This document shows positions 43,797 through 58,155 of a DNA stretch of 64,000 nucleotides, one piece after another. Source of the DNA: an uncultured Dysgonomonas sp. (GTDB lineage: Bacteria > Bacteroidota > Bacteroidia > Bacteroidales > Dysgonomonadaceae); NCBI RefSeq assembly GCF_934668725.1, contig NZ_CAKUOF010000017.1, positions 3,336 through 67,335 of the forward strand, read 5' to 3'. The translations under genes and the position numbers were made by a program. Every line of letters begins with the position of its first letter. Positions within the stretch are counted from its first letter, which is position 1. The notes below the pieces were generated by a model, which saw only the letters and a list, made by a program, of their open reading frames with translations, searched no databases and was not told the DNA's origin.

Positions 43797-44321
43797 TCAA
43801 TCTAGTTTTATTTTACCTTGTTTACAGTCTTCAACTAACGCATCGAACTTTTCTTCGGTTAGATGCTCGTGATAAAAATCACCTAATTGAAGCATAGGCC
43901 CATAACCACAGGCCCCTAAACACTCTACACCTACAACGCTAAACATACCATCATCGGTGGTTTCCCCCTCTTTAATACCTAACTTATTGCAGGCATAATC
44001 CAGCATATCTTCGCCTCCACGTATACTACAGCAGGATGTACGGCAAAATTCAAATGTATATTTACCTCTTGGATGCTGATTAAACATCGTATAGAATGTT
44101 ACCACTTCATATACTTCAATCGGTGTTACCTCCAGTATTTCAGCAACCTTATTCATCAAAGGAACACTTAACCAGTTCTCATGAGCATCTTGCACAGCAT
44201 GGAGTACAGGCAGCATAGCTGATTTTTTCTTATCAGCCGGATAGTGACTGATTAACTCATTGATTCGAGTCATCAGCTCCTCTGTCATATTTATTTTTTG
44301 ATTGTATTCTCTTTTTTCCAT
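43797..44321 (-). CDS. nuoE: NADH-quinone oxidoreductase subunit E (2Fe-2S)
   Basis: 174 aa with a thioredoxin-like 2Fe-2S motif (CRTSCC...CLGACGYGP). Its start overlaps the nuoD stop. Confidence 0.8.
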   Translation of the reverse strand: MEKREYNQKINMTEELMTRINELISHYPADKKKSAMLPVLHAVQDAHENWLSVPLMNKVAEILEVTPIEVYEVVTFYTMFNQHPRGKYTFEFCRTSCCSIRGGEDMLDYACNKLGIKEGETTDDGMFSVVGVECLGACGYGPMLQLGDFYHEHLTEEKFDALVEDCKQGKIKLD

Positions 44322-45556
44322 TACGCGTCTAATTCTCCGGCAATAACATTTATACTTGACAATGTAGCCACTGCATCCGAAAGCATTCCTCCTTTAATCA
44401 TCTCAGGGAATGCCTGATAATATATAAAACAAGGTCTGCGGAAATGCAAACGATATGGAGTACGCGAACCATCTGTAATTAAATACATACCCAATTCGCC
44501 ATTGGCCCCCTCTACTGCGTGATACACTTCTGCTACCGGAACCGGAATTTCTCCCATTACAATTTTAAAGTGATTTATTAGAGCTTCCATACTTGTATAC
44601 ACTTCATCCTTAGGAGGAAGGTAATAATCAGGAACATCTGCATGATAATCTCCTTCGGGTAGGTTGTCTTTTGCTTGACGAATTATTTTCAAGCTTTCTT
44701 TGACCTCTGCACAACGTACACAGAAACGATCATAAGTATCACCCGATTGGCCAACCGGTACTATAAAATCGAAATCTTCATACGAACTATATGGTTTTGC
44801 TACACGCACATCATAATCAATACCGGTTGCCCTCAGATTTGGACCTGTAAAACCATAATTCATTGCCTTCTCAGCAGAGATAGACCCTACATTTACTGTA
44901 CGATCCATAAATATACGGTTTCTCAGATAAGCTCTTTCGAGTTCGTCCCAAGCTTTAGGAAATCCTTCAAGGAATTCGTCCAGTTTTCGCCATGCAGCTT
45001 CGCTCCAATCTCTTTCAAAACCACCAATGCGTCCCATGTTTGTTGTTAAACGACCTCCACAAATCTCCTCATAGATTTCGTAAACTAACTCACGGTATTT
45101 CATTACGTATAAAAAGGGCGAATATGCACCTAAATCGACTCCCAAAATACCATTACATATCAAGTGATCGGTAATACGTGCCAATTCCATAACTATGACA
45201 CGCATATATTGTGCCCGCTTAGGAACTTCTACCCCCAAAGCTTTCTCGACTGTCATCCACCAGCACATATTATTGATCGGTGCAGAACAGTAGTTCATAC
45301 GGTCTGTCAACGGGGTGATCTGATAGAATGCTCTATTTTCAGCAATTTTCTCAAAAGCTCTGTGTATATAGCCTACAGTAGTATCGGCATCTAAAATACG
45401 CTCGCCATCCATAAGCAGTATATTCTGGAATACACCATGCGTAGAAGGATGCGTAGGTCCGAAATTTAAAACCGATAGCTCGCGTCCATCTTCGGGAGTA
45501 TGCTCTCTCAAGATTTTCGCAAAGCGATGTTCAGGGTGTAATAATAGGTCTGACAT
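44321..45556 (-). CDS. nuoD: NADH-quinone oxidoreductase subunit D
   Basis: 411 aa, NiFe-hydrogenase large-subunit-like (49 kDa). A separate gene, not a nuoCD fusion. Confidence 0.85.
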   Translation of the reverse strand: MSDLLLHPEHRFAKILREHTPEDGRELSVLNFGPTHPSTHGVFQNILLMDGERILDADTTVGYIHRAFEKIAENRAFYQITPLTDRMNYCSAPINNMCWWMTVEKALGVEVPKRAQYMRVIVMELARITDHLICNGILGVDLGAYSPFLYVMKYRELVYEIYEEICGGRLTTNMGRIGGFERDWSEAAWRKLDEFLEGFPKAWDELERAYLRNRIFMDRTVNVGSISAEKAMNYGFTGPNLRATGIDYDVRVAKPYSSYEDFDFIVPVGQSGDTYDRFCVRCAEVKESLKIIRQAKDNLPEGDYHADVPDYYLPPKDEVYTSMEALINHFKIVMGEIPVPVAEVYHAVEGANGELGMYLITDGSRTPYRLHFRRPCFIYYQAFPEMIKGGMLSDAVATLSSINVIAGELDA

Positions 45557-45654
45557 TTTCAGTCTTTTACTTATATTATTTCTATTGCCATATCCGTTAA
45601 CTATAACATTCTTTAGTGTATGGCACTAACCAAAGAAAAGGAAGGTCTAAAACC

Positions 45655-46185
45655 TTATTTGGGTTGATAGTTATTAGTTGTTCTACCAAAAAAACGGTCG
45701 TCCTTGTCACTACGTCCCGAATCCTCCATTGGATATTCTTTACGCATCGGAAACGATGTCATACCATCATCATTCAAAATACGTTTTAGATTGGGATGGC
45801 CGACAAACTTAATACCATAGAAGTCATAAGTCTCTCTTTCCATCCAATTGGCCGCAGCAAAAATATCGGTTATAGTATCAACCTCGACCTTTTCACCATT
45901 CAAAAAAGTTTTCACTCTGACTCGTACGTTATCCATCCAGTTATGCAACAGATATACAACTACAAACTGAGATTCAATACCATTATCCGGATAATGCACA
46001 CCACAAAGATCAGTCAAGAAGTTGAAACGTAAAATTTCGTTCTCTTTCATAAAACGAATTACATCTTTAATTCTAGAGGGAGTGGCTTCGAATGTTAGAA
46101 TATCTTGTTCCATTCTGAAATTCAACACATCTGCTCCAAATCTTTCTATTATTTTATTTTGAATATCGATAGTTTCCAATGACAT
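45655..46185 (-). CDS. nuoC: NADH-quinone oxidoreductase subunit C
   Basis: 176 aa, 30-kDa subunit. Confidence 0.8.
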   Translation of the reverse strand: MSLETIDIQNKIIERFGADVLNFRMEQDILTFEATPSRIKDVIRFMKENEILRFNFLTDLCGVHYPDNGIESQFVVVYLLHNWMDNVRVRVKTFLNGEKVEVDTITDIFAAANWMERETYDFYGIKFVGHPNLKRILNDDGMTSFPMRKEYPMEDSGRSDKDDRFFGRTTNNYQPK

Positions 46186-46216
46186 TATTATCCTATGTTA
46201 TAACAGGTCTCCGACC

Positions 46217-46768
46217 TTATTCAAATTTATATGATTCTAAAAGCTCCTGATATTTTTCAGACCCTCTACGATGTACTGATTCGCTTTTCACAATTTCTTG
46301 TAACTGCATTACACCATCCAATATTTGCTCAGGACGAGGAGGACAACCTGGCACATATACGTCAACAGGTATAATTTTATCAATACCCTGTAAAACTGAA
46401 TATGTGTCAAAGATTCCGCCAGAAGAAGCACATGCTCCTACTGCAATAACCCATTTCGGTTCTGCCATTTGCTCATATACATGACGTAAAATGGGAGCCA
46501 TCTTTTTAGAAATAGTCCCCATCACTAACAACATATCGGCTTGACGTGGAGAGAAGCTGTTACGCTCGGCTCCGAAACGCCCCATATCATAAGTAGATGC
46601 CATAGTTGCCATAAATTCGATACCACAACATGATGTTGCAAACGGCAAAGGCCACATCGAGTTAGCCCGAGCCAAACCAATTACATAATCAAATTTGGTT
46701 GCAAAAAAACCATTCCCGGTATACCCATCCGGTGCAGGTACTATATTTATTTTAGTTGATTCACTCAT
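46217..46768 (-). CDS. nuoB: NADH-quinone oxidoreductase subunit B (4Fe-4S N2)
   Basis: 183 aa with CCGIEFMA...GACASSGG...CPPRPE motifs. Confidence 0.85.
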
Positions 46769-46854
46769 GATTCATATTATTAAGTCAGAATAATAACTTT
46801 TGGATAATCTTACTTTAAGAAGCATTTACTCCAATTAAAGTAATATATCAAATC

Positions 46855-47223
46855 TTATTTTTCCCACTCCAAAGCTTTTCTTTTTACAATATAAAGATAT
46901 CCCACTAAAAGAAGAGCTATAAAGCCTCCCATCTTTAACAAACCAGCAAGACCTATTGTTTTAAAATTAACCGCCCAAGGATACATGAAAATAATTTCGA
47001 TATCGAAAAGGACAAAAAGAATAGCCACTAAGAAATATTTTACAGCAAAAGGTGTACGTGCATCACCTATTGAATCAATTCCACATTCAAAATTTTGATT
47101 CTTTTTAGATGATCGGTGCTTAGGGCCAAGGTAGTTTGACGCAAGTATTGTACCAAATACAAAAATAACAGAAAATGCCACTTGCATCAGGATCGGCACA
47201 AAATCATATAGATTCGATTCCAT
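46855..47223 (-). CDS. nuoA: NADH-quinone oxidoreductase subunit A
   Basis: 122 aa, 3 TM helices, ND3-like. Confidence 0.8.
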   Translation of the reverse strand: MESNLYDFVPILMQVAFSVIFVFGTILASNYLGPKHRSSKKNQNFECGIDSIGDARTPFAVKYFLVAILFVLFDIEIIFMYPWAVNFKTIGLAGLLKMGGFIALLLVGYLYIVKRKALEWEK

Positions 47224-47310: not shown

Positions 47311-47536
47311 TCATATATTTTATCAATATAACACACACTGGCACGCACAGAAAACAAAAAAACACCATTTTGATAAGCACACCTTACAAATAATGAAATT
47401 ATGTTTTTAAGAAGATTTATATTTGGATTGTGATAAATAATAAATATTATCTATTCGCTTAAAAAATGCGTATCTGATAAAAAAGTATATCCAAACAGCA
47501 TCTATTACATTAGAAATTATATCAAATTAAATAATA

Positions 47537-47590
47537 AAATATAGAGGTTACCTAATATATTGGTAACCTCTATATTTTATTATTTTCATT
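47537..47590 (-). terminator. rho-independent (symmetric) terminator downstream of the psp/flotillin operon
   Basis: 12-bp stem atagaggttacc (47541-47552) pairs with ggtaacctctat (47562-47573), with T/A-rich flanks on both sides. It lies immediately after the stop of the OMP gene at 47595. Confidence 0.7.
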
Positions 47591-47594
47591 TTTC

Positions 47595-48284
47595 TCAAAA
47601 AAAACGATATCCGATCGTAAAAAAGGCATTACGATTATGAATATCAACAGCTGCCTGAGAAATATTACTCAAGCCATATTCATATCCTAAATTAAATGTG
47701 AATAATTTAAATTCAGCACCAATTCCACCAATTAAACCGACCTCAAAACGCTTCAGTAAATCATCAGAAAAGGTATTATCCCTGTATTGCTCCGAAAAGT
47801 GCTTAAATTCACCTGAAGGTGAATTTAAAAATCCATCAAATCTGCTAGTCGTTTTTCCTCCAATACCATATGATAAATACCCCCCGACAGAAAAATTTAC
47901 CTTAAAGTCATCCGTTACCCCAACCTTATAACCCACCATCAAGGGCAATTGGAGGTATACCATATTCCAAGACGATTTTATAGTTCCATAATCGCCAAAA
48001 ATACCATCTCCATTGATATCTCCTTCTGTTATCAGATCTGATTTAAATCCTTTTGAATTTATTTCTAATCCAGAACGTAAGAAAAAATCTTTTTGAAGAT
48101 CGTATTCGGCAACAATCCCCAATTGATAACCAACTTTAGCATCAGTATCAATATATTCCATATCTACATTAGATAAGTTCATACCAACCTTGCCTCCGAG
48201 TGAAAATTTCGCCTCCTGAGAATACATATTAGCAACTAAAAGTAAACTAGTTACCGTTAGAAAAATCTTTTTGATAATGTTCAT
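47595..48284 (-). CDS. outer-membrane beta-barrel (OmpA/OmpW-like porin family) protein, last gene of the psp/flotillin operon
   Basis: Signal peptide (LLLVANMYSQ), amphipathic beta-strands, and a terminal aromatic residue (GYRFF). Begins 18 nt after the giant ATPase gene. Confidence 0.6.
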   Translation of the reverse strand: MNIIKKIFLTVTSLLLVANMYSQEAKFSLGGKVGMNLSNVDMEYIDTDAKVGYQLGIVAEYDLQKDFFLRSGLEINSKGFKSDLITEGDINGDGIFGDYGTIKSSWNMVYLQLPLMVGYKVGVTDDFKVNFSVGGYLSYGIGGKTTSRFDGFLNSPSGEFKHFSEQYRDNTFSDDLLKRFEVGLIGGIGAEFKLFTFNLGYEYGLSNISQAAVDIHNRNAFFTIGYRFF

Positions 48285-48302
48285 AGTATAACTGTTTAAG
48301 AT

Positions 48303-51300
48303 TTATAATTCAAGATTATTATTACCTGTGTATTTTAATACTTTCTTGATACCATCAAGATTATCATTAAACTGAGCCAGTTGAGCTATAACTTGCCCGA
48401 TTTCATTATCCTTACTTATTCCCGCTAATTTATTATTTTTATTAAACACTTCTTTAATGTGTTTCCATCTTTCGACTTCGGAAAAAGTAAGTTGCCCGGC
48501 AATTTCTTTCAACCTCAACAAATTCGCCTCACTGTCAGAAGTTAAGGTTTGTGCCTCGCTAATGTAATGAGATAGAATAAGCTCTTCAACCTCTTTCTGA
48601 TTCATTAGTGGAACAATTTGGCAAACCATTTTATTCATATTCCGATACGAACCTTGTAATTTAAAAGGAGGTTCTAGACGATAGGCATCTTGTGTGGCTG
48701 CACTTGATATATAATTTTGATTTACTTTCAGTACGATATCCCTTACCGTTAAGCTACTTTTGGCGACTGCGATGAAGTCATCGACATCTTGTTGTGTATA
48801 ATTACCTTCCAGATCGGGCATATCCTCACTCCTACTCTCGATATGTTCAATTAAATTATAAAAATCAGAGAAACTACGTCCGGCTATCTTTTGTAAATAC
48901 GGATTCTCTATCACTGCATTTTCAAGTAAACTTAACTTAAATAAATGATCAGATGTACCTATCACATCTCCTAGATTATATACATCTGCACGATTAGCTA
49001 ACATATCAGGGATCTGAAATTTATCGCCACTCTCGGTATAAGGATTACCCGCCATAATGACACAAAAACGCTTCCCTCTCAAATCATAAGTCTTACTTTC
49101 GCCTTCAAATATACCATCCATCTTACGCTGTCCATCAGCTAAAGATATAAACTTTTGTAAAAATTCTGAGCTGCAATGTTGTATATCGTCTAAATATAAC
49201 ATCACATTATCAGCCATTTCAAAGGCAAGGTTTATTTTCTTCAACTCCTCACGTGCCCCCGAGGTTTTCGCTTCTGCCGGATCAATAGATGTTATAGAAT
49301 GCCCAATGGTTGGTCCATTTATTTTCACAAAATTCAACCCCATCGTTTTAGCTAAATACTCCATAAGGGTAGTTTTTCCGTATCCGGGAGGAGAAACAAG
49401 CAACAACATTCCCATCCGCGAAGTACGCTTATTTTCGCCTGCCCCCCCTAGCTGTTTAGCAAGATTAGAACCGATCAAAGGTAGATATACTTCATTGATT
49501 AATTTATTTCTGACAAAAGAAGTCAAAACCTTAGGATTTAGCTCATGCACCTTTAATGTCTTTTTATAATCAGAGACCAATCTTTCTTTTAGCTCAGAAA
49601 AACGATTGTATGCAGGTACATTATCAAGAGTAAAAGATCTCATTTTTCTAATAAACTCATGATAATCTATCTCGTAATGACCATTCTCCATTATGGGATG
49701 GCTTCCTTTCAACTCATTAACATCTAAGATATCGGATGCAATCGTTAATGAATACGACTGGTTCTTCAACAACAACAGACAAGCTGTTTCCTCTACATAC
49801 TTATTATACAGAGAATAATCATCAGACAATTCGACAAAAGATTTTAGCCAGTTCTGAACTAAATAGAATCTGTCTACAGGATTAAATGATTCATTACGAA
49901 CATCTTCTTCAAAATTATTCGATAATTTATTTTTATCTAAATATTCGACAAAAAATTTCCTCAAATTTTCAGATTGCTCGCTATAGCTTAAGGACATCGA
50001 ATCTGAAAATTCTTCAAATAAATAATTGGCAACTTGCTTTTCGAAGCCGATAGGTACGGTAAAATATATATTCCACGATTTAAACAGACCTATAATCCGA
50101 TCTATCACATATTGATAATTTGTTGAGCCGGGGAACGCCTTCAACACTATGTTAGCCGAAGTTATTAGCTTTGACAGATGTTCTTTCTCCTCCGCTTTCA
50201 TCATATACCAGAAAAGTTGTGCTGCAACCCTCAAGCGGGGAGGGTAAGCCAAAACTCCTAACTGATAATGAACAGATTCCAAACAACGGAAAATATGTAT
50301 AGCATCATAATCGTGTACTCCTTTTAAATACGATTCTGAATAGCTTTGTTCCACTCTTTTAGCTATAAAATCATTCAGATCAAAATCTTTAGATTTCTGC
50401 CTCTCCAGAAATGCCAAATACGCCAAATACTCGGATCTATATACCTTCGAATTTTCGGAAACAATTTCTTGCTCCCACAAATCTTTATGTTTATAGATTT
50501 CGTTATCTTTCAGCTCATAATAGAAGCTGGTTCCGGTCAAATGATAGAAAAGCCTATCCTCTTTACGCACAACTGTCAAATCAAGCGATTGCCTGTTTAC
50601 TGCAAACTTATAACTGCCTAATGATATTATATTTTCGCCATCAACAAACAGCTCGTTTTTGTCTTTTAGTATACGCAGCGAATCTTCTAGGGAGGTCTTT
50701 AGGCTGTTTTCCAGATTTTCAGCCTTTGAGACATCTCCAAGCTCTTTCAATTCTTCAATCAGTTTGTGGATTTTGTCGATCATCAGATCTGTAGAAAAGA
50801 ATGCTTGTATTTCTTCTTTTGTTTTAAAAGATTGCGCTTTATTCTCTACATTCTTTAAAATGCGAAGACCGATTTGCTCCAATGCTGATGTTCGCTTATT
50901 TATCTGCTCAATCAATTGGGCTTTCTTCCCATCAAAAGCTTTTATCAGTTCATTCCTTTTATCTGAAATTTTAATAATAAACTCATCAAAATCGGCAAAC
51001 TTACTTTCCAATTCTTCAACCTGTACGCTTACTTTAGTAAAATATTCGTCACATTTTTCCGGAGAAGTAGCCAAGTCCAGAAAGTTGACAATACTTTGCT
51101 CCAACAAAGTTAATTGGGCACGAAAATCAGCCACCGATTCTTTGTTCTTCAACGAATCGATCTGTCTTTTGAGTTGTGCCCGAACTTCATTCAGTGAAGA
51201 AAATATGACAGATATCTTTTCCACAATACGGGTAGCCTGTGTAGTATCATCAATCTTTAGGCTATTCAGAATATCAATCAGGAGTTCCAGTTCTGACGAA

Positions 51301-53168
51301 ATCGATTTACAATTAGCATCTATTTTATTGGCATCAATAACCTTTGAGACCAACTGAACCTGCTCTTTCTCTGCACGAACTTTTTCCTCATAAGGAAACA
51401 AAGCCTCATCACGAAGAAGAAATTCTACCGTTCTATCCGATAGTCTTCCATTAGTGGCAGCTAATTGCTCTTTAAGATCATTGACATTATTTAAGTCAAT
51501 GTATTTGACATTAGCCAATTCAATAACTTCTCCTTGCAACCTGCGTGTTTGGGCTAATGCTTTAACTAATTTATCTAGTGTATCAAATTTTGCATTCTTG
51601 ATACTAAACAACAAGCTTTCTACTTTCTCTTGAGTAGTAATCAAAACAGTCAACGAATGTCGCTTTTGCTCCTGAACCTTTTCAAATTCATCAATAGCTG
51701 TATTAGCTATTTCTTTTATCTGAACAAGAGGTTCGGCTATCGAATATATCTCCTTGTTGGATGCCCAGAAAAAAGCATCTACAATATCGTTTGACTTCTT
51801 TACAATATCGCTGTACAGTCCTTCATAAGAGTCTTCCTTATTTATAAGATAAATCACCTCCTGACACTCTGCCATTGCTTTCACAATATCCTTATTGCCT
51901 ATTTTATAAAGTAAATTATCGGTCTTCTCGATATTTTCAATTAGCTCTCTCTGATAGGGTGTTTTCCAGATTTGCACCTGATGATGTTTTGTCGCTTCAT
52001 TTTCGGAACGGAAATATATTAACGAACCATCCTTAAAAAAGGTAAATCCATTACATATAATTGGAGTTTCAACTTGCTGCCTAATTATATTATACGACAT
52101 CAAGACATAAATATTCCGTTCGTTTTGATAGAAAATAAACAAATAGTCTTCGCCATTAGGAGATGGTATTTTTCGAATAAATTCAAGATCTGTCAATTCA
52201 CTCTCAAAAACTTTGTATTCTCCATTCTGCAAATAATATCCATTGGGAAATATCACTCCATGATTATCTGGCAATAATACCCCAATATCATTTAATGCTT
52301 TTATATTGTGTACTTCTTTGGTTCGAGTATTAAATACAAAGGCTCTAAAGTCTTCCTGATAGGGTTTTATTCGAATTAGAATCAGGTTACCCAAATCTGT
52401 ATAATAATACTCAGCATCATCCAATTGCTGATCTTTGTTCTCTACAGCTTCCGAATATATACCTTTTCCTGTTTGTGTATTATCCTCTATCTTAAAAGTA
52501 ATATCACCGCCCATGGCTTCAATAAAGACTTTATCCTTAATAGAAATATGTGGATAAACCCCTAAACGACGATCTTCCAGCGTGGTCTTAATCCATTTGA
52601 ATTCATGCTGAGGAGCTTTAGTCACTTCATGAATACTCCTGTCATCCTGATATATGAGTTTATTTCCTTTAATCAGCCATTTAAAAGCTTTAGCGTCTGC
52701 TACTGTTTTTCCGGTTTGAAAAATCATATACAGATAATTCTCCGTTCTTCTGTATCTGGAGAAAATAGAATCGCGATAGTATTTATAGAGATTATTGTAA
52801 TCGTTAATAAAATCAGGATCGGCAATTAGATCCAAGGGCTGCGGTATAAACTGATTGTTTTCAAATAAATATATACTAAAAACATCACTCAACTGAATAT
52901 CGGAGCGCAATCCGAAATGAACGTTATAGCCGAAAATACATAGATTATCAAGAGCCATAATACCTCTTGATACACAATTATTATCGGTACTGATACGCTG
53001 ATTGGCAATCAAAGAAAAATCAGTTGTATTAAATACTTCCTTGCGGGCTTCGTTTAGCTGATTCAGGCGCTTTTGAAGTTCTTCGCGCTGAGTAAGTAAA
53101 CGTTTTCTTATTATCTCATATGTTCCTGCATCAAGTGTCTCAGCAGATCTATCCTCTGTGTCTTGCAT
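48303..53168 (-). CDS. giant (1621 aa) coiled-coil protein with C-terminal classic-type AAA+ ATPase domain; function unknown
   Basis: The N-terminal ~420 aa are a globular domain of unknown fold. Residues ~430-1000 are heptad-rich E/K/L coiled coil. Walker A is LLLVSPPGYGKTTLMEYLAK, Walker B is VMLYLDDIQH, and VIMAGNPY...IPDMLANRADVYNL is a second-region-of-homology-like segment (residues ~1280-1440). There is no signal peptide and no TM segment. Confidence 0.7.
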   Translation of the reverse strand: MQDTEDRSAETLDAGTYEIIRKRLLTQREELQKRLNQLNEARKEVFNTTDFSLIANQRISTDNNCVSRGIMALDNLCIFGYNVHFGLRSDIQLSDVFSIYLFENNQFIPQPLDLIADPDFINDYNNLYKYYRDSIFSRYRRTENYLYMIFQTGKTVADAKAFKWLIKGNKLIYQDDRSIHEVTKAPQHEFKWIKTTLEDRRLGVYPHISIKDKVFIEAMGGDITFKIEDNTQTGKGIYSEAVENKDQQLDDAEYYYTDLGNLILIRIKPYQEDFRAFVFNTRTKEVHNIKALNDIGVLLPDNHGVIFPNGYYLQNGEYKVFESELTDLEFIRKIPSPNGEDYLFIFYQNERNIYVLMSYNIIRQQVETPIICNGFTFFKDGSLIYFRSENEATKHHQVQIWKTPYQRELIENIEKTDNLLYKIGNKDIVKAMAECQEVIYLINKEDSYEGLYSDIVKKSNDIVDAFFWASNKEIYSIAEPLVQIKEIANTAIDEFEKVQEQKRHSLTVLITTQEKVESLLFSIKNAKFDTLDKLVKALAQTRRLQGEVIELANVKYIDLNNVNDLKEQLAATNGRLSDRTVEFLLRDEALFPYEEKVRAEKEQVQLVSKVIDANKIDANCKSISSELELLIDILNSLKIDDTTQATRIVEKISVIFSSLNEVRAQLKRQIDSLKNKESVADFRAQLTLLEQSIVNFLDLATSPEKCDEYFTKVSVQVEELESKFADFDEFIIKISDKRNELIKAFDGKKAQLIEQINKRTSALEQIGLRILKNVENKAQSFKTKEEIQAFFSTDLMIDKIHKLIEELKELGDVSKAENLENSLKTSLEDSLRILKDKNELFVDGENIISLGSYKFAVNRQSLDLTVVRKEDRLFYHLTGTSFYYELKDNEIYKHKDLWEQEIVSENSKVYRSEYLAYLAFLERQKSKDFDLNDFIAKRVEQSYSESYLKGVHDYDAIHIFRCLESVHYQLGVLAYPPRLRVAAQLFWYMMKAEEKEHLSKLITSANIVLKAFPGSTNYQYVIDRIIGLFKSWNIYFTVPIGFEKQVANYLFEEFSDSMSLSYSEQSENLRKFFVEYLDKNKLSNNFEEDVRNESFNPVDRFYLVQNWLKSFVELSDDYSLYNKYVEETACLLLLKNQSYSLTIASDILDVNELKGSHPIMENGHYEIDYHEFIRKMRSFTLDNVPAYNRFSELKERLVSDYKKTLKVHELNPKVLTSFVRNKLINEVYLPLIGSNLAKQLGGAGENKRTSRMGMLLLVSPPGYGKTTLMEYLAKTMGLNFVKINGPTIGHSITSIDPAEAKTSGAREELKKINLAFEMADNVMLYLDDIQHCSSEFLQKFISLADGQRKMDGIFEGESKTYDLRGKRFCVIMAGNPYTESGDKFQIPDMLANRADVYNLGDVIGTSDHLFKLSLLENAVIENPYLQKIAGRSFSDFYNLIEHIESRSEDMPDLEGNYTQQDVDDFIAVAKSSLTVRDIVLKVNQNYISSAATQDAYRLEPPFKLQGSYRNMNKMVCQIVPLMNQKEVEELILSHYISEAQTLTSDSEANLLRLKEIAGQLTFSEVERWKHIKEVFNKNNKLAGISKDNEIGQVIAQLAQFNDNLDGIKKVLKYTGNNNLEL

Positions 53169-53260
53169 ATACTGTTTTTCAAATGAAAATTATCTCATCG
53201 GATTAATTAAGCAGAGACACGATCTATTATCGCATCCCTGCAAGAAAAAAACAAAGTCAT

Positions 53261-55447
53261 TTATGATAACTTCTTATTGGATATTCCTAATGATTTTGAC
53301 ATATTTAGCAGACTGCTCAAAAATCCTTTGTCTTCACTCTCGGTGCTTTGACTTTGCATTTTTAAGATAAGACCTGCAATACTCAGATTCTTAATATCGT
53401 CTGTTGATATATTGAATTTATTCACATAATATCTGATCCTGTCAAACAATTCCCCTTCGGAGCCATTTCCAATTAATGCTTTCTTTATTTGCTGGATATT
53501 TTCACTCTTATTCACCAAATTATCAAATCCTTTAGCATTAGAAACTTGTTTTACAATATTTTCGAAGAACATGGTCTCTCCACCAACAATATCGATATCA
53601 GCAGATTTTAATGCTTCAGACAACACTTGAGCTTGCGCATCAGCAATATCTTTCTGGATACTGATTTGTGCCATTTCAACATCTTTCTCTTTCTGTAGTT
53701 GTAATTTGAATTCTTCATGCTCTTTCCCTGCACCATCCAGTTTTTTCATTGCTGTAGCTTTTTCGTCTATACCTGTAGCTTCGGCTAGAGCTTTTTCTTT
53801 CGAAACTTCAGCTTCCATCAAACCTTCTTTACGTTTAGCTTCTGCTTTCGCTTCTATTCCTGCAGCTTCAGCTATCGATGTTTTCTCTATAATGCTGGCT
53901 TGTCCGGTAGCAGAAGCAAATGCTTTTTCTCTTGTGATTTCAGCATCTACCAATCCATCTTTTCGCTTCGCCTCAGCTCTTGTTTCGATGCTGTAAGCTT
54001 CGGCTTTTGCTTTCTTCTCAATAATAGAAGCTTCTACAATACCTTGTTTCTCTTCTGCATCCGCTTTGGCTTTCATGATTTCTGCTTCCGCTAAACCATA
54101 AGTAGCATCTTCTTTTGCTTGAGCTTCGGCTAAAATTTTCCTTGCTTCGGCTTGTTTTGTTGACGCTTCTTTCTTAGCATCTGCATCTATCAACAATTGT
54201 TTAGCCCTTTCTTCTGCCGCTTTTTTATCAGCCTCAGCTCCTTTTACGGTTTTAATCAACTTCTCTTCAGCTTCCTGAGCAGCCATAGTTATACCTACTT
54301 GCTTCTGACGGTCTACCTCCCTAAAAGCTTCAATATCTTTGATATTTTGTTTTTCCTCAACTACACCTTTTTCGAGCTGGACACGCTCACGAATGACATC
54401 CTGAATATTTTTCTTCTCAACTTCCAGAACACGCTCTTTTTCAATTTGAGCCAAAGTCACTATTCGTTCTCTTTCCGTTTGTTCTAATGCACGGTCTTTT
54501 TCTACACGCTCCTTTTCGATTGCCTCTGTTCTTTCTTTATTTTTCTCAGCTATAATTATCTGGCGACGTTTATTTTCTTCCTGTATAGCTAAACTCTCAT
54601 CCGTAGATATTCTTACAGTTTCAGATTTCAATCGCTCTTCTTCTCTTACTTTCTGAATCTCGGCTTCTTCACGAGATTTCACATTATCTATCTCTCTCTT
54701 TTGTTTCTCTTCTTTTTCAGCTAATTGTCTTTCCAGTTCGAGAATAGCTTCACGTGCTTCAACATTTTGCTTTTTTATAACTTTTTCCTCTTCCCTGCGA
54801 ATCAAATTCGCATTGATATTCTGAGCAGCGGTCAACTCGGTAATCTTGCGGATACCTTCCGAATCGAGAATATTCTCAGCACTCATATATTTCATTTCTG
54901 TTTGCTCCAGATAATCTATTGCACAGTCATCCAAAATATAGCCATTCAAATCGGTACCTATAATATTTATGATTTCGTCTCTAAACTCTCTACGGGCTTC
55001 GTATAGTTCTATAAAATCGAACTTTTTACCTACTGTCTTTAAGGCTTCCGAAAACTTAGCTTCAAATATATTTTTAAGCGTTTCTGAATCACTGGCACGC
55101 TCACAACCCAATGTTTGAGCGACATTGATGACATCATTTACTGATTTATTGACTCTAACAAAGAAGGCAACTTTAATATCGGCACGAATATTGTCTTTAC
55201 AAATTAACCCGTCATGCTGCATTCTTTCTATTTGAAGTTTTTTGACTGAAATATCCATTATTTCCATTTTATGGAAAATAGGAACTACATACATTCCTTT
55301 ATTAAAGGCAACATTAGTTCCACCGACACCGGTACGAACGATAGCCTTACCTTGAGGTATTTTTTTATAAAATGACGCTAAAATGCCTAAAAGCACAAGC
55401 AGAATAAAAAGGACAGAGCCTACAAGAATGATAATAATGTGTTCCAT
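53261..55447 (-). CDS. flotillin (SPFH/Band-7) family protein, YqiK/FloT-like
   Basis: N-terminal TM (IIIILVGSVLFILLVLLGILA) and an SPFH domain (KAIVRTGVGG...DIKVAFFVRV). Long C-terminal EA-rich coiled coil with an internal tandem repeat (EAKAEAKRKEGL.. appears twice). Confidence 0.8.
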   Translation of the reverse strand: MEHIIIILVGSVLFILLVLLGILASFYKKIPQGKAIVRTGVGGTNVAFNKGMYVVPIFHKMEIMDISVKKLQIERMQHDGLICKDNIRADIKVAFFVRVNKSVNDVINVAQTLGCERASDSETLKNIFEAKFSEALKTVGKKFDFIELYEARREFRDEIINIIGTDLNGYILDDCAIDYLEQTEMKYMSAENILDSEGIRKITELTAAQNINANLIRREEEKVIKKQNVEAREAILELERQLAEKEEKQKREIDNVKSREEAEIQKVREEERLKSETVRISTDESLAIQEENKRRQIIIAEKNKERTEAIEKERVEKDRALEQTERERIVTLAQIEKERVLEVEKKNIQDVIRERVQLEKGVVEEKQNIKDIEAFREVDRQKQVGITMAAQEAEEKLIKTVKGAEADKKAAEERAKQLLIDADAKKEASTKQAEARKILAEAQAKEDATYGLAEAEIMKAKADAEEKQGIVEASIIEKKAKAEAYSIETRAEAKRKDGLVDAEITREKAFASATGQASIIEKTSIAEAAGIEAKAEAKRKEGLMEAEVSKEKALAEATGIDEKATAMKKLDGAGKEHEEFKLQLQKEKDVEMAQISIQKDIADAQAQVLSEALKSADIDIVGGETMFFENIVKQVSNAKGFDNLVNKSENIQQIKKALIGNGSEGELFDRIRYYVNKFNISTDDIKNLSIAGLILKMQSQSTESEDKGFLSSLLNMSKSLGISNKKLS

Positions 55448-55512
55448 AAAGGTTTTTTATTTATTTAGTTAGAATTATTCATGTGTTGCTGATTACAAAT
55501 AGGTTTGTAATC

Positions 55513-56211
55513 TTAATAAGTATCTTTAATTACATAGTATATGTGTTTATCAGATACTTCTTCGGTGATTATTACCGTTTCTCCATATTTAATAGATTCT
55601 CCATTAAGACTGATAATATTTAATTTAATCGGGTTTCTATTTATCAGAAATTCAGCAGTGCCCACTTTCTGACCCTCTATATTAGAAAGCATTTTACCTG
55701 AGCATCCAAAAAAGTCTGTAGCTTCTTCTCCCTGATAATTTATCTCTTTAAAAAGTTTTGCCATAGGAGTGGTTGCTACCTTTGTCAAGAAAAATCCTAT
55801 AATAACTAAAGGTAGTAATACAAAAACAGACTTCCGCCCCAAATGATCAACATGAAAGAAATGTGTTGTAATGAGTGACCCGATCCATAATAGAAAAATA
55901 AAAGTGGATAATACCAGCATAAAAGGCACTTGTCCTACATTTATAAATGACAAACATTTTAACAGTATTCCCTGAGGAACTTTCTCTACTGCAATATGAC
56001 TATCGGTATCCACATCCGCTACATCAATTTCTATATCAGGAACTTCAACATCCACATCTACTTCCGGAGAAAAATCAATATTCAAATCAATATCATCAAA
56101 ACCAATGCCTCCGATCAGTACAAATAACCAATAAATAGCTATCACTAACATCAACACGGTCATGACCCCGTTAGGAAGTGGATGAAATAAAGTATGTAAA
56201 AAGTCTGTCAT
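55513..56211 (-). CDS. NfeD/YqiJ-like membrane protein (OB-fold C-terminus), flotillin partner
   Basis: 232 aa with 3-4 TM helices and an acidic DVDVEVPDIEIDVADVDTD tract. The C-terminal beta-rich segment (GTAEFLINRNPIKLNIISLNGESIKYGETVIITEE) resembles an NfeD-like OB-fold. The yqiJ-yqiK / nfeD-floT pairing is an established pattern. Confidence 0.55.
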   Translation of the reverse strand: MTDFLHTLFHPLPNGVMTVLMLVIAIYWLFVLIGGIGFDDIDLNIDFSPEVDVDVEVPDIEIDVADVDTDSHIAVEKVPQGILLKCLSFINVGQVPFMLVLSTFIFLLWIGSLITTHFFHVDHLGRKSVFVLLPLVIIGFFLTKVATTPMAKLFKEINYQGEEATDFFGCSGKMLSNIEGQKVGTAEFLINRNPIKLNIISLNGESIKYGETVIITEEVSDKHIYYVIKDTY

Positions 56212-56229
56212 AGTACTATTTTTAGAGTG

Positions 56230-56931
56230 TTATTGCATTCCCAATTTTCGCTTAATCTCATTAAGCTCCAAATCTACATTTTGCTCATTCGCTCCAATCG
56301 CTATATCTATTTCGTCATCAACAGAAATATTACATTTATTCAATGCAGCATAAGCCTGGGCCAATGCGTCCTCTTCCGCAATCTTTTCTTTTATTCGCTC
56401 CAACATATTCAAAGTACTATCACTATCTATTTGAGCCATTTGCCTATTCACTTCTTGAGTAACTTTACTTATACGGATTTTCGCCTTTAGAGTTTTCAGC
56501 TCATTTTCCCACTTGGTAATATTAAACTTAAGTATTTCAATATTTTTCTGAATATCCAATGCTATATTTTCATGCTCAATACGCTGCACATCCAGTTCAT
56601 TTATTTCTGAAATCAATTGCTCTTTGCGAAGCAAAGCTTCCTTTGCCAATCTTTCTGCTTGAGCTATATCAATGTCTCCATTATGAGCTTTTGAAATTAA
56701 GAGAACAGCCTTATTCCCATAGTCCTGAGCTTCTGATCTCTTTTTCTCTTTTTCGTTTTTAGCACGGATGACCATTGCTTTAACCTTCGCTAAAGATTCT
56801 AAAGTTAGAGTCAGATTCTCTTTCATTTCCACAATCCCGGTCTCCGTAATTTGTACAGGATCTTCAACGCCATCTAATACCTCATGTATCTCAGCCTGAC
56901 CAATTCTAAATAGTCTTTTGAATATATTCAT
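56230..56931 (-). CDS. pspA: PspA/IM30/Vipp1 family protein (bacterial ESCRT-III-like)
   Basis: 233 aa, all-helical coiled coil. The N-terminus (MNIFKRLFRIGQAEIHEVLDGVEDPVQ) aligns with E. coli PspA ([27 protein letters not shown]). Confidence 0.8.
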   Translation of the reverse strand: MNIFKRLFRIGQAEIHEVLDGVEDPVQITETGIVEMKENLTLTLESLAKVKAMVIRAKNEKEKKRSEAQDYGNKAVLLISKAHNGDIDIAQAERLAKEALLRKEQLISEINELDVQRIEHENIALDIQKNIEILKFNITKWENELKTLKAKIRISKVTQEVNRQMAQIDSDSTLNMLERIKEKIAEEDALAQAYAALNKCNISVDDEIDIAIGANEQNVDLELNEIKRKLGMQ

Positions 56932-56935
56932 AATC

Positions 56936-57334
56936 TTATTTTTTAGCGAACTCTATAATTTGCTCGTAATACTCACTCAGCAATAACCCCAAAGAATTTA
57001 AGGCTCCTTCAAACTCATTTATACCCATATTTTCTATTTGCATGGTGTATCTGAATATGACCTTCGTTCCATCTTCATTCAAAACAAATCCTCCATGTAT
57101 AATGTCCCTATTCTTAATTAATAAAGATTTCAGAATTTCTTTATCATCATTCTGCAATGTGAAAATAAATTGCTCTATAATAAGAATAGGAGAAGCCACT
57201 CCAATAATCAAATTCTTGATTCCATCGGTTTCACTTTCTATACAGAATACGCCTTTAGTTTCATCGTGATACGTAATCGAATAGCCTAGCTTCAAGATAT
57301 ATGTTTCTATTTTTTTTAAATACATATCATTCAT
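56936..57334 (-). CDS. YbjN-domain protein (T3SS-chaperone/CesT-like fold), first gene of the operon
   Basis: 132 aa, acidic, alpha/beta. Family membership comes from recalled similarity to YbjN-like 'putative sensory transduction regulator' proteins. Its stop lies 4 nt from the pspA start. Confidence 0.45.
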   Translation of the reverse strand: MNDMYLKKIETYILKLGYSITYHDETKGVFCIESETDGIKNLIIGVASPILIIEQFIFTLQNDDKEILKSLLIKNRDIIHGGFVLNEDGTKVIFRYTMQIENMGINEFEGALNSLGLLLSEYYEQIIEFAKK

Positions 57335-57480
57335 TATATATAAATAATAAACATAGCTTGTTTCATTAAGAAATTATGAGGGCAAAATTTGTATTCTGCT
57401 AATTAATATCCTATATTTGCTAATATTTTTAGCTAAATTAGATAAATAATTTAACTATACAAACAAAAAATATATTTTTT

Positions 57481-58155
57481 ATGAGTAAAGTTGGAAAAAA
57501 TATAAAAAAAATAAGAAATGTAAAGGCTTTGAGTCAACAGGCATTTGCTGATTTATTTCAACTGACAAGAGGAAATATATCTTCATATGAAGAGTTTAGA
57601 GCCGAACCCAAAATAGAAATCATCGTGAACATTGCTAAATATTTTGGCATCCCGTTAAATGACTTTATTTTGAAAGAATTATCGGTCAACGAGCTCCTGC
57701 ATTACAATACGGAACTGGTATTAGAAACCGAGAAACTAAAGAAAACCCACCACTTTATAGAGGTTCCTTATGTATCTTCGTTAGATATTGTTGATTATGA
57801 AGCACATTACAATGATGAGAACTTCATACACAATCTTCCCCATATTAGTATTCCGAGCAGTGCCAAGTCTAAATTGATAGCTATTGAGATACAAGATTCG
57901 GAATCGCTGCCTTTAGGTTTTAACTTTAAGAATGGAGATATTCTAATTTATGAGCAAGTAATAAGAGAAAATATTCATAGAATAGAAAACAAACTCGGAT
58001 TAATGGTCGATACTGATGGTATAAAATCAGGTGTATATAAAGAACATGAAGGCAAAATATTTTTATCGCTTAATGAATGGGTAAAGTATCCTTTTGAAAT
58101 AGACTCACCTGCTCATTATTGGCTGCTCAGGGCATTATTTACTCAAATTATATAA
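57481..58155 (+). CDS. XRE-family HTH transcriptional regulator with C-terminal LexA/S24-peptidase-like beta domain
   Basis: N-terminal HTH_XRE (IKKIRNVKALSQQAFADLFQLTRGNISSYE). The C-terminal region (LIAIEIQDSESLPLGFNFKNGDILIYEQV) resembles an S24 fold. Transcribed divergently from the ybjN-pspA operon with a 146-bp shared AT-rich spacer; TATATTTG at 57412-57419 fits a -7 box. Confidence 0.55.
   Translation: MSKVGKNIKKIRNVKALSQQAFADLFQLTRGNISSYEEFRAEPKIEIIVNIAKYFGIPLNDFILKELSVNELLHYNTELVLETEKLKKTHHFIEVPYVSSLDIVDYEAHYNDENFIHNLPHISIPSSAKSKLIAIEIQDSESLPLGFNFKNGDILIYEQVIRENIHRIENKLGLMVDTDGIKSGVYKEHEGKIFLSLNEWVKYPFEIDSPAHYWLLRALFTQII

What the first reader, a model, noticed from the sequence alone, without database searches (positions are those of the whole stretch)
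47595..57334. Six-gene operon joining PspA (ESCRT-III-like), flotillin, NfeD/YqiJ, a YbjN/CesT-like protein, a 1621-aa coiled-coil AAA+ ATPase and an OM beta-barrel: candidate uncharacterised envelope-remodelling system
Seen in sequence: six minus-strand ORFs with intergenic gaps of 4, 18, 65, 92 and 18 nt, one strong terminator only after the last gene (47537-47590), and a divergent XRE/S24 regulator upstream. The components span cytoplasm, inner membrane and outer membrane. Established: PspA/Vipp1 are bacterial ESCRT-III homologues, and NfeD-flotillin pairs (yqiJ-yqiK, nfeD-floT) are common. Inference: the giant protein carries a classic-clade-like AAA domain, with Walker A SPPGYGKT and an hhhhDD Walker B. 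In eukaryotes and archaea, ESCRT-III polymers are remodelled by the classic AAA ATPase Vps4. A dedicated AAA+ ATPase fused to ~600 aa of coiled coil and co-transcribed with PspA and flotillin therefore suggests a membrane-repair or vesiculation machine rather than a simple stress sensor. I do not recognise the giant protein as any characterised family.
Basis: partly seen in the sequence, partly recalled or inferred. Interest (0 to 1): 0.85.

Follow-up and report, generated by a model that had tools for sequence, protein, structure and literature searches.

The report
Flotillin–PspA operon with giant ATPase
This is a Dysgonomonas copy of a widespread bacterial gene cluster, already described in print but never tested experimentally, that pairs a membrane-scaffolding flotillin with a giant ATP-driven protein and, in this bacterial group, a membrane-repair protein; the neighbouring outer-membrane gene is not part of it.

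Summary
The sequence observation holds. Six co-directional ORFs (57334-47595, minus strand) have gaps of 4/18/65/92/18 nt, one strong terminator follows, and an XRE-type regulator is transcribed divergently.

- The giant protein belongs to a recognised family: Pfam DUF3686 + DUF7902 + AAA, named "DNA repair ATPase" by NCBI.
- This operon class was published by Ravi et al. (bioRxiv 2020, mSystems 2024). No experimental study turned up.
- In 80 genomes, the ATPase follows a YqiJ-like gene and a flotillin gene in 59 of 63 informative loci across six phyla. Three plasmid records add Pseudomonadota, Actinomycetota and Deinococcota.
- The CesT-PspA pair and the XRE regulator accompany it only in Bacteroidota (30/40 versus 0/22). 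A Pseudomonas megaplasmid joins a different YjfI-PspA module to the triad.
- So flotillin/YqiJ, not PspA, is the ATPase's constant partner.
- The outer-membrane barrel gene has no homologue at any of the 80 loci and is a truncated remnant in a 96%-identical sister strain.
- The AAA+ module has intact catalytic motifs, but it is not demonstrably classic or Vps4-like.

Verdict: a new member of a known but uncharacterised kind, of moderate interest.

The parts
57481..58155 (+). XRE-family HTH regulator (224 aa), divergently transcribed. Only the N-terminal HTH (aa 1-70) is conserved. The roughly 150-aa C-terminal domain is of uncertain fold.
   Evidence: Pfam HTH_19/HTH_3. A homologue sits in the same divergent position in 31/40 Bacteroidota loci and 0/22 others. 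Invariant columns lie only within aa 1-55. The LexA S24 match is weak and the catalytic residues are not conserved.
57335..57480 (.). Divergent control region between the regulator and the operon. It contains a Bacteroidota-type -7 promoter motif TATATTTG at 57412-57419 (+ strand, facing the regulator) and three TTAGC repeats.
   Evidence: Sequence; motif scan. TTAGCAA/TTGCAAA 7-mers recur in 19 of 31 equivalent intergenic regions. Function is inferred.
56936..57334 (-). CesT/Tir-like small protein (132 aa), probable partner or chaperone of the adjacent PspA
   Evidence: PF22550 CesT_Tir_1, E 2e-47, 160.7 bits. A 4-nt gap to pspA. Present with PspA in 30/40 Bacteroidota loci.
56230..56931 (-). 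PspA/IM30 family protein (233 aa), ESCRT-III superfamily, with a PspA-like N-terminal helix (MNIFKRLFRIGQAEI)
   Evidence: PF04012, E 6e-34, 118 bits, above the cut-off. Family profile against E. coli PspA 3e-17 and YjfJ 5e-12, full length. No TM segment.
55513..56211 (-). YqiJ/YuaF-like (NfeD-related) inner-membrane protein (232 aa) with three predicted TM segments
   Evidence: Pfam YqiJ_N 1e-3, below cut-off. BLASTP to E. coli YqiJ 0.01. Three hydrophobic segments. Homologue immediately upstream of flotillin in 60 of 80 loci, and in Pseudomonas, Streptomyces and Deinococcus records.
53261..55447 (-). YqiK-type flotillin (728 aa): N-terminal TM anchor, SPFH domain, long E/K/A/R-rich coiled coil, flotillin C-terminal region
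   Evidence: 31% identity over 449 aa to E. coli YqiK, E 5e-50. One N-terminal TM segment, and aa 200-600 are 46-64% E/K/A/R. Immediately upstream of the ATPase in 67-68 of 80 loci. Pfam models are silent.
48303..53168 (-). Giant soluble AAA+ ATPase (1621 aa) of the DUF3686 family ('DNA repair ATPase' in NCBI)
   Evidence: Pfam DUF3686 8e-167, DUF7902 5e-25, AAA 6e-9. At least 3932 homologues. 690 clusters at 50% identity. No TM segment.
51768..53081 (-). N-terminal helix plus all-beta, divergent beta-propeller-like domain (DUF3686, aa 30-467) of the ATPase
51159..51407 (-). DUF7902 segment (aa 588-670) within the long helical stalk (about aa 450-950) of the ATPase
   Evidence: PF25472, 5.5e-25. 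P+G content is 0-2 per 50 aa across aa 450-950.
48969..49421 (-). Single AAA+ module (aa about 1250-1400): Walker A SPPGYGKTT, Walker B D1327-D1328, sensor-1 N1375, candidate Arg finger R1393
47595..48284 (-). Outer-membrane beta-barrel gene (229 aa): an adjacent, probably co-transcribed neighbour, not a conserved member of the system
   Evidence: PF13568 2e-24. 18-nt gap. No homologue among 7,094 ORFs of 80 loci. In the 96%-identical strain only the last ~58 codons remain, followed by an LtrA gene.
47529..47585 (-). Intrinsic terminator ending the transcription unit in this strain
   Evidence: 24-bp stem, dG -30.4 kcal/mol, z -8.6, U-rich tail.

Best explanation
This is an inner-membrane maintenance or stress module.

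Conserved core (three co-transcribed genes):
- a 3-TM YqiJ/NfeD-like protein;
- a YqiK-type flotillin;
- a soluble ~1,600-aa AAA+ ATPase, built from an N-terminal helix, a divergent beta-propeller, a long helical stalk, an unassigned middle region, one catalytically intact AAA+ module and a helical C-terminus.

Bacteroidota, including this Dysgonomonas, have added a CesT-like chaperone plus PspA pair and a divergently transcribed XRE-type regulator.

Shown here: gene identities, predicted topology, conservation of the catalytic residues, and the gene linkage.

Inferred mechanism:
1. Flotillin and YqiJ build an SPFH scaffold (cage or microdomain) on the cytoplasmic face of the inner membrane.
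2. The ATPase, probably as a ring oligomer, docks through its propeller and stalk. It uses ATP to assemble, open or recycle that scaffold or its client proteins. Other SPFH cages likewise work with AAA+ machines.
3. PspA is kept soluble by the CesT-like partner. It is then recruited to the same membrane patch to seal or reshape damaged bilayer.
4. The XRE regulator sets expression of the operon.

The outer-membrane barrel gene is a strain-variable neighbour.
For: Linkage: YqiJ-like + flotillin lie directly upstream and co-directional in 59/63 loci with enough flank. By phylum: Bacteroidota 39/41, Planctomycetota 7/7, Verrucomicrobiota 7/7, Kiritimatiellota 1/1, Clostridia 4/4, Desulfobacterota 1/3. 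The same triad is found in Pseudomonas, Streptomyces and Deinococcus replicons.

No other family is shared by more than 8 loci.

CesT-PspA-XRE is present in 30/40 Bacteroidota loci. An independent join of YjfI-PspA to the triad occurs on pQBR103.

Identities. Topology: YqiJ 3 TM, flotillin 1 TM, ATPase and PspA none.

Walker A/B, sensor-1 Asn and one Arg are invariant across phyla.

The ATPase is strongly conserved: 63-75% identity across Bacteroidota orders over 1,600 aa.

The family is not mobile or viral: no true homologue in 2.9 M viral contigs; 13 of 72,556 plasmid records, all above 160 kb; no PADLOC defence hit.

Literature: the same operon and a chaperone/assembly reading are in PMC11237479. 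The B. subtilis SPFH protein YdjI is required to localise PspA, as cited in PMC10936438. HflK/C cages enclose the AAA+ protease FtsH (PMC13220708 abstract).
Against: - There is no experimental datum for any family member (searches found none).
- Physical contact between the ATPase and flotillin/YqiJ is inferred only from gene order.
- E. coli and many other bacteria run yqiJK without such an ATPase, so flotillin does not need it.
- The flotillin C-terminal ~100 aa are poorly conserved, so no obvious docking tail exists.
- The AAA+ clade is unresolved, so threading versus non-threading action cannot be predicted. The pore-loop position reads IGH and has no aromatic residue.
- Models are of moderate confidence (pLDDT 70 and 78).
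- Three of 63 informative loci have the ATPase with neither partner nearby, and a fourth has flotillin only.
- Co-transcription is inferred from spacing only.
Confidence: 0.5

Rival explanations
1. The giant ATPase is a bacterial functional analogue of Vps4 whose substrate is the PspA (ESCRT-III-like) polymer. It disassembles or remodels PspA filaments to drive membrane repair or vesiculation, and flotillin/YqiJ only provide the platform.
Against: The ATPase occurs without a nearby pspA in 22/22 non-Bacteroidota loci and in 9/40 Bacteroidota loci, whereas flotillin/YqiJ are nearly always present. No MIT or other ESCRT-III-binding domain was detected. It has a single Arg (LANRAD) instead of the classic RPGRFD, and an insert before strand 4. 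MoxR-type NorQ/CbbQ are the best structural matches. PspA could still be encoded elsewhere in those genomes; this was not testable here.
Confidence: 0.15
2. An anti-phage or other conflict system: a membrane-acting abortive-infection module controlled by an XRE repressor, with a large ATPase as sensor or effector.
For: XRE-type regulators, giant NTPases and membrane effectors are common in defence loci. The regulator hits PADLOC HTH/RmrA-type models through its HTH. Variable small genes sit between flotillin and the ATPase in about 15 loci. One copy is on a Pseudomonas megaplasmid.
Against: No PADLOC hit for any structural gene beyond a marginal P-loop match. The synteny is stable between housekeeping genes (serine dehydratase and the nuo operon) in sister strains. 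Sequence conservation across orders is very high. The family is essentially absent from viral contigs and small plasmids. These patterns do not fit fast-evolving defence islands.
Confidence: 0.07
3. The database name is right. The giant protein is an SMC/Rad50-like DNA repair ATPase, and its adjacency to membrane genes is incidental.
For: Pfam describes DUF3686 as 'ATPase involved in DNA repair', and NCBI names the family 'DNA repair ATPase'. It has a long coiled coil. There are weak RuvB P-loop matches.
Against: The RuvB and other matches cover only about 45 residues around Walker A. No DNA-binding or nuclease domain was found. The fold is AAA+, not ABC/SMC. Linkage to flotillin/YqiJ holds in 59/63 loci across six phyla. 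No DNA-metabolism gene is conserved nearby.
Confidence: 0.03
4. A MoxR-like assembly chaperone. The ATPase acts once, to mature or insert the flotillin-YqiJ complex or one of its clients, rather than dynamically remodelling it.
Confidence: 0.15

Closest known systems
Operon class described by Ravi et al. [quoted passage not shown]
   Same: All five components, with the same architectures, are present in the window. The paper also states that abbreviated flotillin-YqiJ(-ATPase) operons are more widespread, which searches confirm and quantify.
   Different: The passages read do not mention the divergent XRE regulator as a fixed partner; here it is present in 31/40 Bacteroidota loci. This window has an extra beta-barrel gene as neighbour. 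The class is known only from comparative genomics.
NfeD-flotillin pairs: E. coli yqiJ-yqiK and B. subtilis yuaF-floT
   Same: Same gene order, with a 3-TM YqiJ-type protein followed by a flotillin that has an N-terminal anchor. The flotillin is 31% identical to YqiK.
   Different: E. coli yqiJK has no ATPase, PspA or CesT gene next to it. The window flotillin is 175 aa longer.
SPFH cage with an AAA+ machine: HflK/HflC-FtsH (and prohibitin with m-AAA protease)
   Same: An SPFH scaffold is functionally coupled to an AAA+ ATPase at the inner membrane (PMC13220708 abstract; own knowledge for the prohibitin case).
   Different: FtsH is a membrane-anchored, classic-clade AAA protease enclosed by the cage. 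The protein here is soluble, has no protease domain, and carries a propeller and a long stalk. This is an analogy, not membership.
ESCRT-III / Vps4
   Same: PspA belongs to the ESCRT-III superfamily (PMC8281802, listed). An AAA+ gene shares its operon here.
   Different: No MIT domain. The AAA+ module is not demonstrably classic clade. The ATPase tracks flotillin rather than PspA. [quoted passage not shown]
B. subtilis pspA-ydjGHI
   Same: PspA is encoded with an SPFH/flotillin-like protein (YdjI) that is needed to bring PspA to the membrane (cited in PMC10936438 and PMC9239133).
   Different: That operon has no AAA+ ATPase, no CesT-like protein, and different accessory proteins.
MoxR-family AAA+ chaperones (NorQ, CbbQ, RavA)
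   Same: Best structural neighbours of the AAA+ module. The sensor-1/Arg-finger motif is similar by eye.
   Different: No VWA partner gene. There is a ~1,250-aa N-terminal extension. The Walker-A half looks classic-clade. RavA gives the weakest hhalign score.

Membership tests
Published CesT/Tir-PspA-flotillin-YqiJ-AAA+ operon class (PMC11237479) | All five gene types co-directional in one cluster | tested here: met
   The same order is found in 30 other Bacteroidota genomes.
DUF3686 'DNA repair ATPase' family (PF12458) | Full-length match to the DUF3686 model, with a C-terminal AAA module | tested here: met
   555.7 bits against a cut-off of 25, aa 30-467 matching model positions 1-448/448; AAA at aa 1255-1376.
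PspA/IM30 (ESCRT-III superfamily) | Pfam PF04012 above the gathering score, full-length helical protein with an N-terminal amphipathic helix | tested here: met
   118 bits against 33.9. Full-length profile match to E. coli PspA at 3e-17, with the N-terminus MNIFKRLF aligning to MGIFSRF. The ESCRT-III fold itself was not modelled.
Flotillin / SPFH (YqiK type) | Sequence homology to a named flotillin across SPFH domain and coiled coil; N-terminal membrane anchor | tested here: met
   BLASTP to E. coli YqiK: 31% over 449 aa, E 5e-50. One TM segment at aa 1-31.
Flotillin / SPFH (YqiK type) | Match to the Pfam Band_7/flotillin models | tested here: not met
   No Pfam hit even at E <= 10. NCBIfam FloT scores only 18 bits. 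This is taken as a gap in model sensitivity, given.
YqiJ/YuaF (NfeD-related 3-TM proteins) | Homology to YqiJ; three TM segments; gene immediately upstream of flotillin | tested here: inconclusive
   Pfam YqiJ_N scores 19.8 bits, below the cut-off of 23. BLASTP to YqiJ gives E 0.01. Three TM segments and the conserved position in 60 loci are met.
CesT/Tir chaperone superfamily | Match to CesT_Tir_1 (PF22550) | tested here: met
   160.7 bits against 27, aa 4-132 matching model positions 3-131/131. No detectable similarity to E. coli YjfI.
Classic-clade AAA (Vps4/p97/FtsH type) | Second region of homology with paired arginines (RPGRFD-like) after sensor 1 | tested here: not met
   The sequence reads GNPYTESGDKFQIPDMLANRADVY, with one invariant Arg, R1393.
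Classic-clade AAA (Vps4/p97/FtsH type) | No insertion between helix 3 and strand 4 (no pre-sensor-1 hairpin) | tested here: inconclusive
   A 22-residue insert is modelled as two strands (fragment 200-213), but at pLDDT below 50. It aligns with the equivalent Lon segment YDLS..VMFVATSN.
Classic-clade AAA (Vps4/p97/FtsH type) | Closest sequence and structure neighbours are classic-clade proteins | tested here: inconclusive
Vps4 | N-terminal MIT domain that binds ESCRT-III tails | tested here: not met
   Pfam finds only DUF3686, DUF7902 and AAA-type domains. The N-terminal 1149 aa have no PDB sequence relative.
MoxR AAA+ family | Conserved VWA-domain partner gene nearby | tested here: not met
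   The only conserved neighbours are YqiJ, flotillin, PspA, CesT and XRE.
MoxR AAA+ family | Sequence or structure closest to MoxR proteins | tested here: inconclusive
LexA/CI-type S24 self-cleaving repressors (for the XRE regulator) | S24 domain with a Ser-Lys catalytic dyad | tested here: not met
   No Pfam S24 hit at E <= 10. The PDB profile search hits only the HTH. hhalign to LexA gives probability 37%. There are no invariant residues beyond aa 55, and the family consensus has E-M where LexA has S-M.
Known anti-phage defence systems (PADLOC) | Significant match of the structural genes to a defence-system model | tested here: not met
   Only a marginal P-loop match (mad8, 3.8e-4) for the ATPase, and HTH matches for the regulator.

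The most novel reading that the evidence does not exclude
The DUF3686 ATPase is a dedicated, protease-free AAA+ remodeller of flotillin (SPFH) cages. It would be an ATP-driven machine that opens, recycles or loads flotillin/NfeD scaffolds, conserved in at least nine bacterial phyla. In Bacteroidota and some Pseudomonas replicons it would hand the exposed membrane patch to a chaperone-held ESCRT-III-like PspA. That would make it the first energy-consuming regulator of bacterial flotillin microdomains, and a bacterial parallel to the SPFH-ESCRT links seen in archaea and eukaryotes.
Probability: 0.3. Interest if true: 0.7.

Novelty: new member of a known kind. Interest (0 to 1): 0.35.

Why it matters
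How bacterial flotillin scaffolds are assembled, turned over and linked to PspA-type membrane repair is unknown. No ATP-dependent regulator of either has been shown outside the PspF transcription factor and the HflK/C-FtsH protease.

This gene triad is conserved across many phyla, and the ATPase is unusually well conserved for its size. A defined genetic system such as Dysgonomonas, Sphingobacterium, Flavobacterium or pQBR103 could therefore make that question directly testable.

The finding is not new as an observation. The operon class is in the literature, so its value lies in a sharper, testable hypothesis (the partner is flotillin/YqiJ rather than PspA), not in discovery.

Tried and rejected
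1. Placing the AAA+ module in a clade by sequence. PDB searches with the single sequence and with a 75-sequence profile matched only about 40 residues at Walker A. A profile of the Walker-B-to-Arg-finger half found nothing. hhalign against five E. coli AAA+ proteins was noisy (the first run was spoiled by a wrong option).
Shallower alignments of Bacteroidota homologues had to be used, which limited model confidence.
4. Pfam and PDB searches for the flotillin gave nothing. A direct BLASTP to YqiK settled it.
5. The S24 identity of the regulator was not supported.
6. I looked for a conserved flotillin C-terminal docking tail and found none.
7. A conserved operator was sought in the divergent intergenic region. 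The recurrent motif is more simply read as the Bacteroidota -7 promoter box.
8. Rejected readings: DNA repair, anti-phage defence, and membership of the outer-membrane barrel gene.
9. Literature searches for DUF3686, PF12458 and 'DNA repair ATPase' + flotillin returned nothing.

Full report
**Observation.** The gaps are 4, 18, 65, 92 and 18 nt. A divergent ORF at 57481-58155 carries an XRE-type HTH. After the last gene, a 24-bp hairpin (about 47529-47585) with a U-rich tail folds at -30.4 kcal/mol, z = -8.6 against shuffles. The consensus scan shows no convincing minus-strand terminator in any gap between the six genes. The window comes from a Dysgonomonas. The giant protein clusters with WP_166117559.1 of Dysgonomonas sp. 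HDW5A, named 'AAA family ATPase / DNA repair ATPase'.

**Gene identities.**
- Gene 1 is a CesT/Tir-like protein (PF22550, 2e-47).
- Gene 2 is a full-length PspA/IM30 protein. It scores 118 bits in Pfam, and its family profile matches E. coli PspA at 3e-17 and YjfJ at 5e-12.
- Gene 3 has three predicted TM segments. Its direct similarity to YqiJ is weak: Pfam 1e-3, below the cut-off, and BLASTP 0.01.
- Gene 4 gets no Pfam or PDB sequence hit. It is nevertheless 31% identical to E. coli flotillin YqiK over 449 residues (E 5e-50). It has one N-terminal anchor and a long charged coiled coil.
- Gene 6 is an OMP_b-brl_2 barrel.
- The regulator's HTH is clear, but the 'S24' label is not supported. 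Pfam and a PDB profile search see only the HTH. hhalign to LexA reaches 37% probability. No residue beyond position 55 is invariant in 32 family members.

**The giant protein.**
- It is not an orphan. It matches Pfam DUF3686 (8e-167, aa 30-467), DUF7902 (aa 588-670) and AAA (aa 1255-1376).
- It has at least 3,932 homologues in the 5.8-billion-protein set, mostly named 'DNA repair ATPase'.
- Its N-terminal domain defines 690 clusters at 50% identity.
- It has no TM segment, and aa 450-950 are almost free of Pro and Gly, which fits a long helical stalk.
- The N-terminal 1,149 residues have no PDB sequence relative.
- Walker A (SPPGYGKTT), Walker B (D1327, D1328), sensor-1 N1375 and R1393 are invariant in relatives down to 28% identity and across 75 genome loci. 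The ATPase is therefore expected to be active.

**AAA+ clade.**
- Sequence searches support this only for about 40 residues around Walker A, where it resembles p97/VAT/Rix7.
- After Walker B the protein reads ...SLADGQRKMDGIFEGESKTYDLRGKRFCVIMAGNPYTESGDKFQIPDMLANRADVY.
- That stretch contains a 22-residue insert before strand 4, modelled as two strands at low confidence.
- It also contains a single arginine, where classic AAA proteins have RPGRFD.
- The segment aligns naturally with the Lon pattern YDLS..VMFVATSN....IPAPLLDRMEVIRL.
- Foldseek mixes Lon, FtsHi, Cdc48, NorQ and Vps4, and NorQ/CbbQ give the best TM-scores.
- No MIT domain is present.
- Conclusion: this is a catalytically intact but divergent AAA+ module that fails at least one defining classic-clade feature. 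Its clade remains open.

**Gene neighbourhood.**
- A pattern scan of one genome per species returned more than 584 loci. I analysed the 80 best, L002-L081, by calling ORFs and searching them with iterated profiles of the window proteins.
- Of 63 loci with at least 3.3 kb upstream, 59 have a YqiJ-like gene and a flotillin gene directly upstream on the same strand.
- By phylum: Bacteroidota 39/41, Planctomycetota 7/7, Verrucomicrobiota 7/7, Kiritimatiellota 1/1, Clostridia 4/4, Desulfobacterota 1/3.
- The CesT-PspA pair with the divergent XRE gene occurs in 30 of 40 Bacteroidota loci and in none of 22 others.
- All-against-all clustering found no other family in more than 8 loci.
- Annotated plasmid and chromid records extend the triad to Streptomyces, Deinococcus and Pseudomonas.
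- On P. fluorescens pQBR103 the triad is fused to a YjfI-PspA-rhomboid-DUF2491-DUF350-DUF1190-glutathionylspermidine synthase block. This is an independent join of a PspA module, with a different chaperone family, to the same triad.
- The family is essentially absent from 2.9 million viral contigs, and the plasmid hits are all on replicons above 160 kb.

**The barrel gene and the operon boundary.**
- None of 7,094 ORFs from the 80 loci resembles the beta-barrel protein.
- In a 96%-identical Dysgonomonas contig the synteny is otherwise identical: serine dehydratase, XRE, CesT, PspA, 234 aa, 728 aa, 1621 aa, then the nuo operon.
- In that contig, however, the DNA after the ATPase stop encodes only the last ~58 codons of the barrel gene, then its own terminator, then an LtrA gene.
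- The barrel gene is therefore a dispensable, strain-variable neighbour, although it is probably co-transcribed here (18-nt gap). The claim that the system spans the outer membrane falls.

**Mechanism.**
- Shown: the identities, topology, conserved catalytic residues and linkage above.
- Inferred: flotillin and YqiJ form an SPFH scaffold on the cytoplasmic face of the inner membrane.
- Inferred: the soluble ATPase, probably oligomerised through its AAA+ module, reaches that scaffold through its propeller and stalk and spends ATP to assemble, open or recycle the scaffold or its clients.
- Inferred: in Bacteroidota, PspA is recruited to the same patch, and the CesT-like protein holds it until then. 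The 4-nt gap between the two genes suggests coupled translation.
- Inferred: the XRE protein controls expression. A Bacteroidota -7 box, TATATTTG, faces the regulator at 57412.
- Precedents: HflK/C cages enclose the AAA+ protease FtsH, and the B. subtilis SPFH protein YdjI is needed to localise PspA.
- The Vps4-like alternative, in which the ATPase acts on PspA polymers, is not excluded. It is weakened by the phyletic pattern and by the missing MIT and classic-clade features.
- The defence and DNA-repair readings have little support.

**What is already known.**
- Ravi et al. (PMC11237479; preprint 2020) describe exactly this cluster. [quoted passage not shown] They also note the more widespread abbreviated operons.
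- Popp et al. (PMC9239133) noted band-7 and HTH genes next to pspA in Bacteroidota.
- Recent reviews still state that no Vps4-like ATPase is known in bacteria.
- I found no experimental work on the family.

**Verdict.** This is a new member of a known, computationally described and experimentally untouched kind. Three points are sharpened here: the numbers showing flotillin/YqiJ rather than PspA as the ATPase's constant partner, the exclusion of the barrel gene, and the evidence against a classic or Vps4-like ATPase. Interest is moderate (0.35). It would rise considerably if the ATPase proves to be an energy-dependent remodeller of flotillin scaffolds.

Noticed in passing
L082:12867-13100 (sister Dysgonomonas contig), compared with window 47595-48284: In the 96%-identical strain only the last ~58 codons of the beta-barrel gene survive directly after the ATPase stop codon. 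Its own hairpin terminator and a 396-aa LtrA gene follow. This is a recent deletion or replacement in the slot between the ATPase gene and nuoA.
   Followed up: partly
L005, L014, L015, L020, L039, L045, L048, L067 (between the flotillin and ATPase genes): About 15 loci carry one to four extra small co-directional ORFs (roughly 80-240 aa) between flotillin and the ATPase. They do not cluster with each other by BLASTP. The window has only a 92-nt gap there. They may be variable accessory subunits or unrelated insertions.
   Followed up: no
window 55448-55512 (minus strand): The 65-nt gap between the YqiJ-like and flotillin genes begins with a perfect 9-bp hairpin (GATTACAAA cct a TTTGTAATC) and no U-tract. 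It could be an RNA processing or stability element, or an attenuator that sets the ratio of the two proteins.
   Followed up: no
window 57335-57480 and the equivalent regions of 30 loci: The 7-mers TTAGCAA and TTGCAAA recur in 19 of 31 XRE-CesT intergenic regions. In the window the motif is the reverse complement of TATATTTGCTAA, which fits the Bacteroidota -7 promoter box TAnnTTTG facing the regulator gene. No perfect -7 box faces the operon.
   Followed up: partly
L092 (P. fluorescens SBW25 plasmid pQBR103, 84437-97641): One ten-gene co-directional block joins the E. coli yjfIJKLMC-type polyamine/PspA cluster (plus a rhomboid protease) to the YqiJ-SPFH-giant ATPase triad on a 425-kb plasmid.
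   Followed up: partly
L029 (Chryseobacterium aahli) and L042 (Bacteroidetes MAG): These are variant layouts. In L029 the XRE gene sits directly upstream of the YqiJ-like gene, with the CesT-PspA pair missing. In L042 a PspA gene lies about 1.1 kb downstream of the ATPase on the opposite strand.
   Followed up: no
window 53261-55447: Pfam Band_7/flotillin models give no hit at all, even at E <= 10, for a protein that is 31% identical to E. coli YqiK. Automated annotation will therefore miss this flotillin subfamily.
   Followed up: yes
window 43797-47223 and L082:14652-20866: The adjacent nuo operon includes NuoE/F/G-type genes (2Fe-2S_thioredx, Complex1_51K, NADH-G_4Fe-4S_3). From memory, Bacteroides NDH-1 operons lack nuoEFG, so this Dysgonomonas may differ. 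This was not checked.
   Followed up: no
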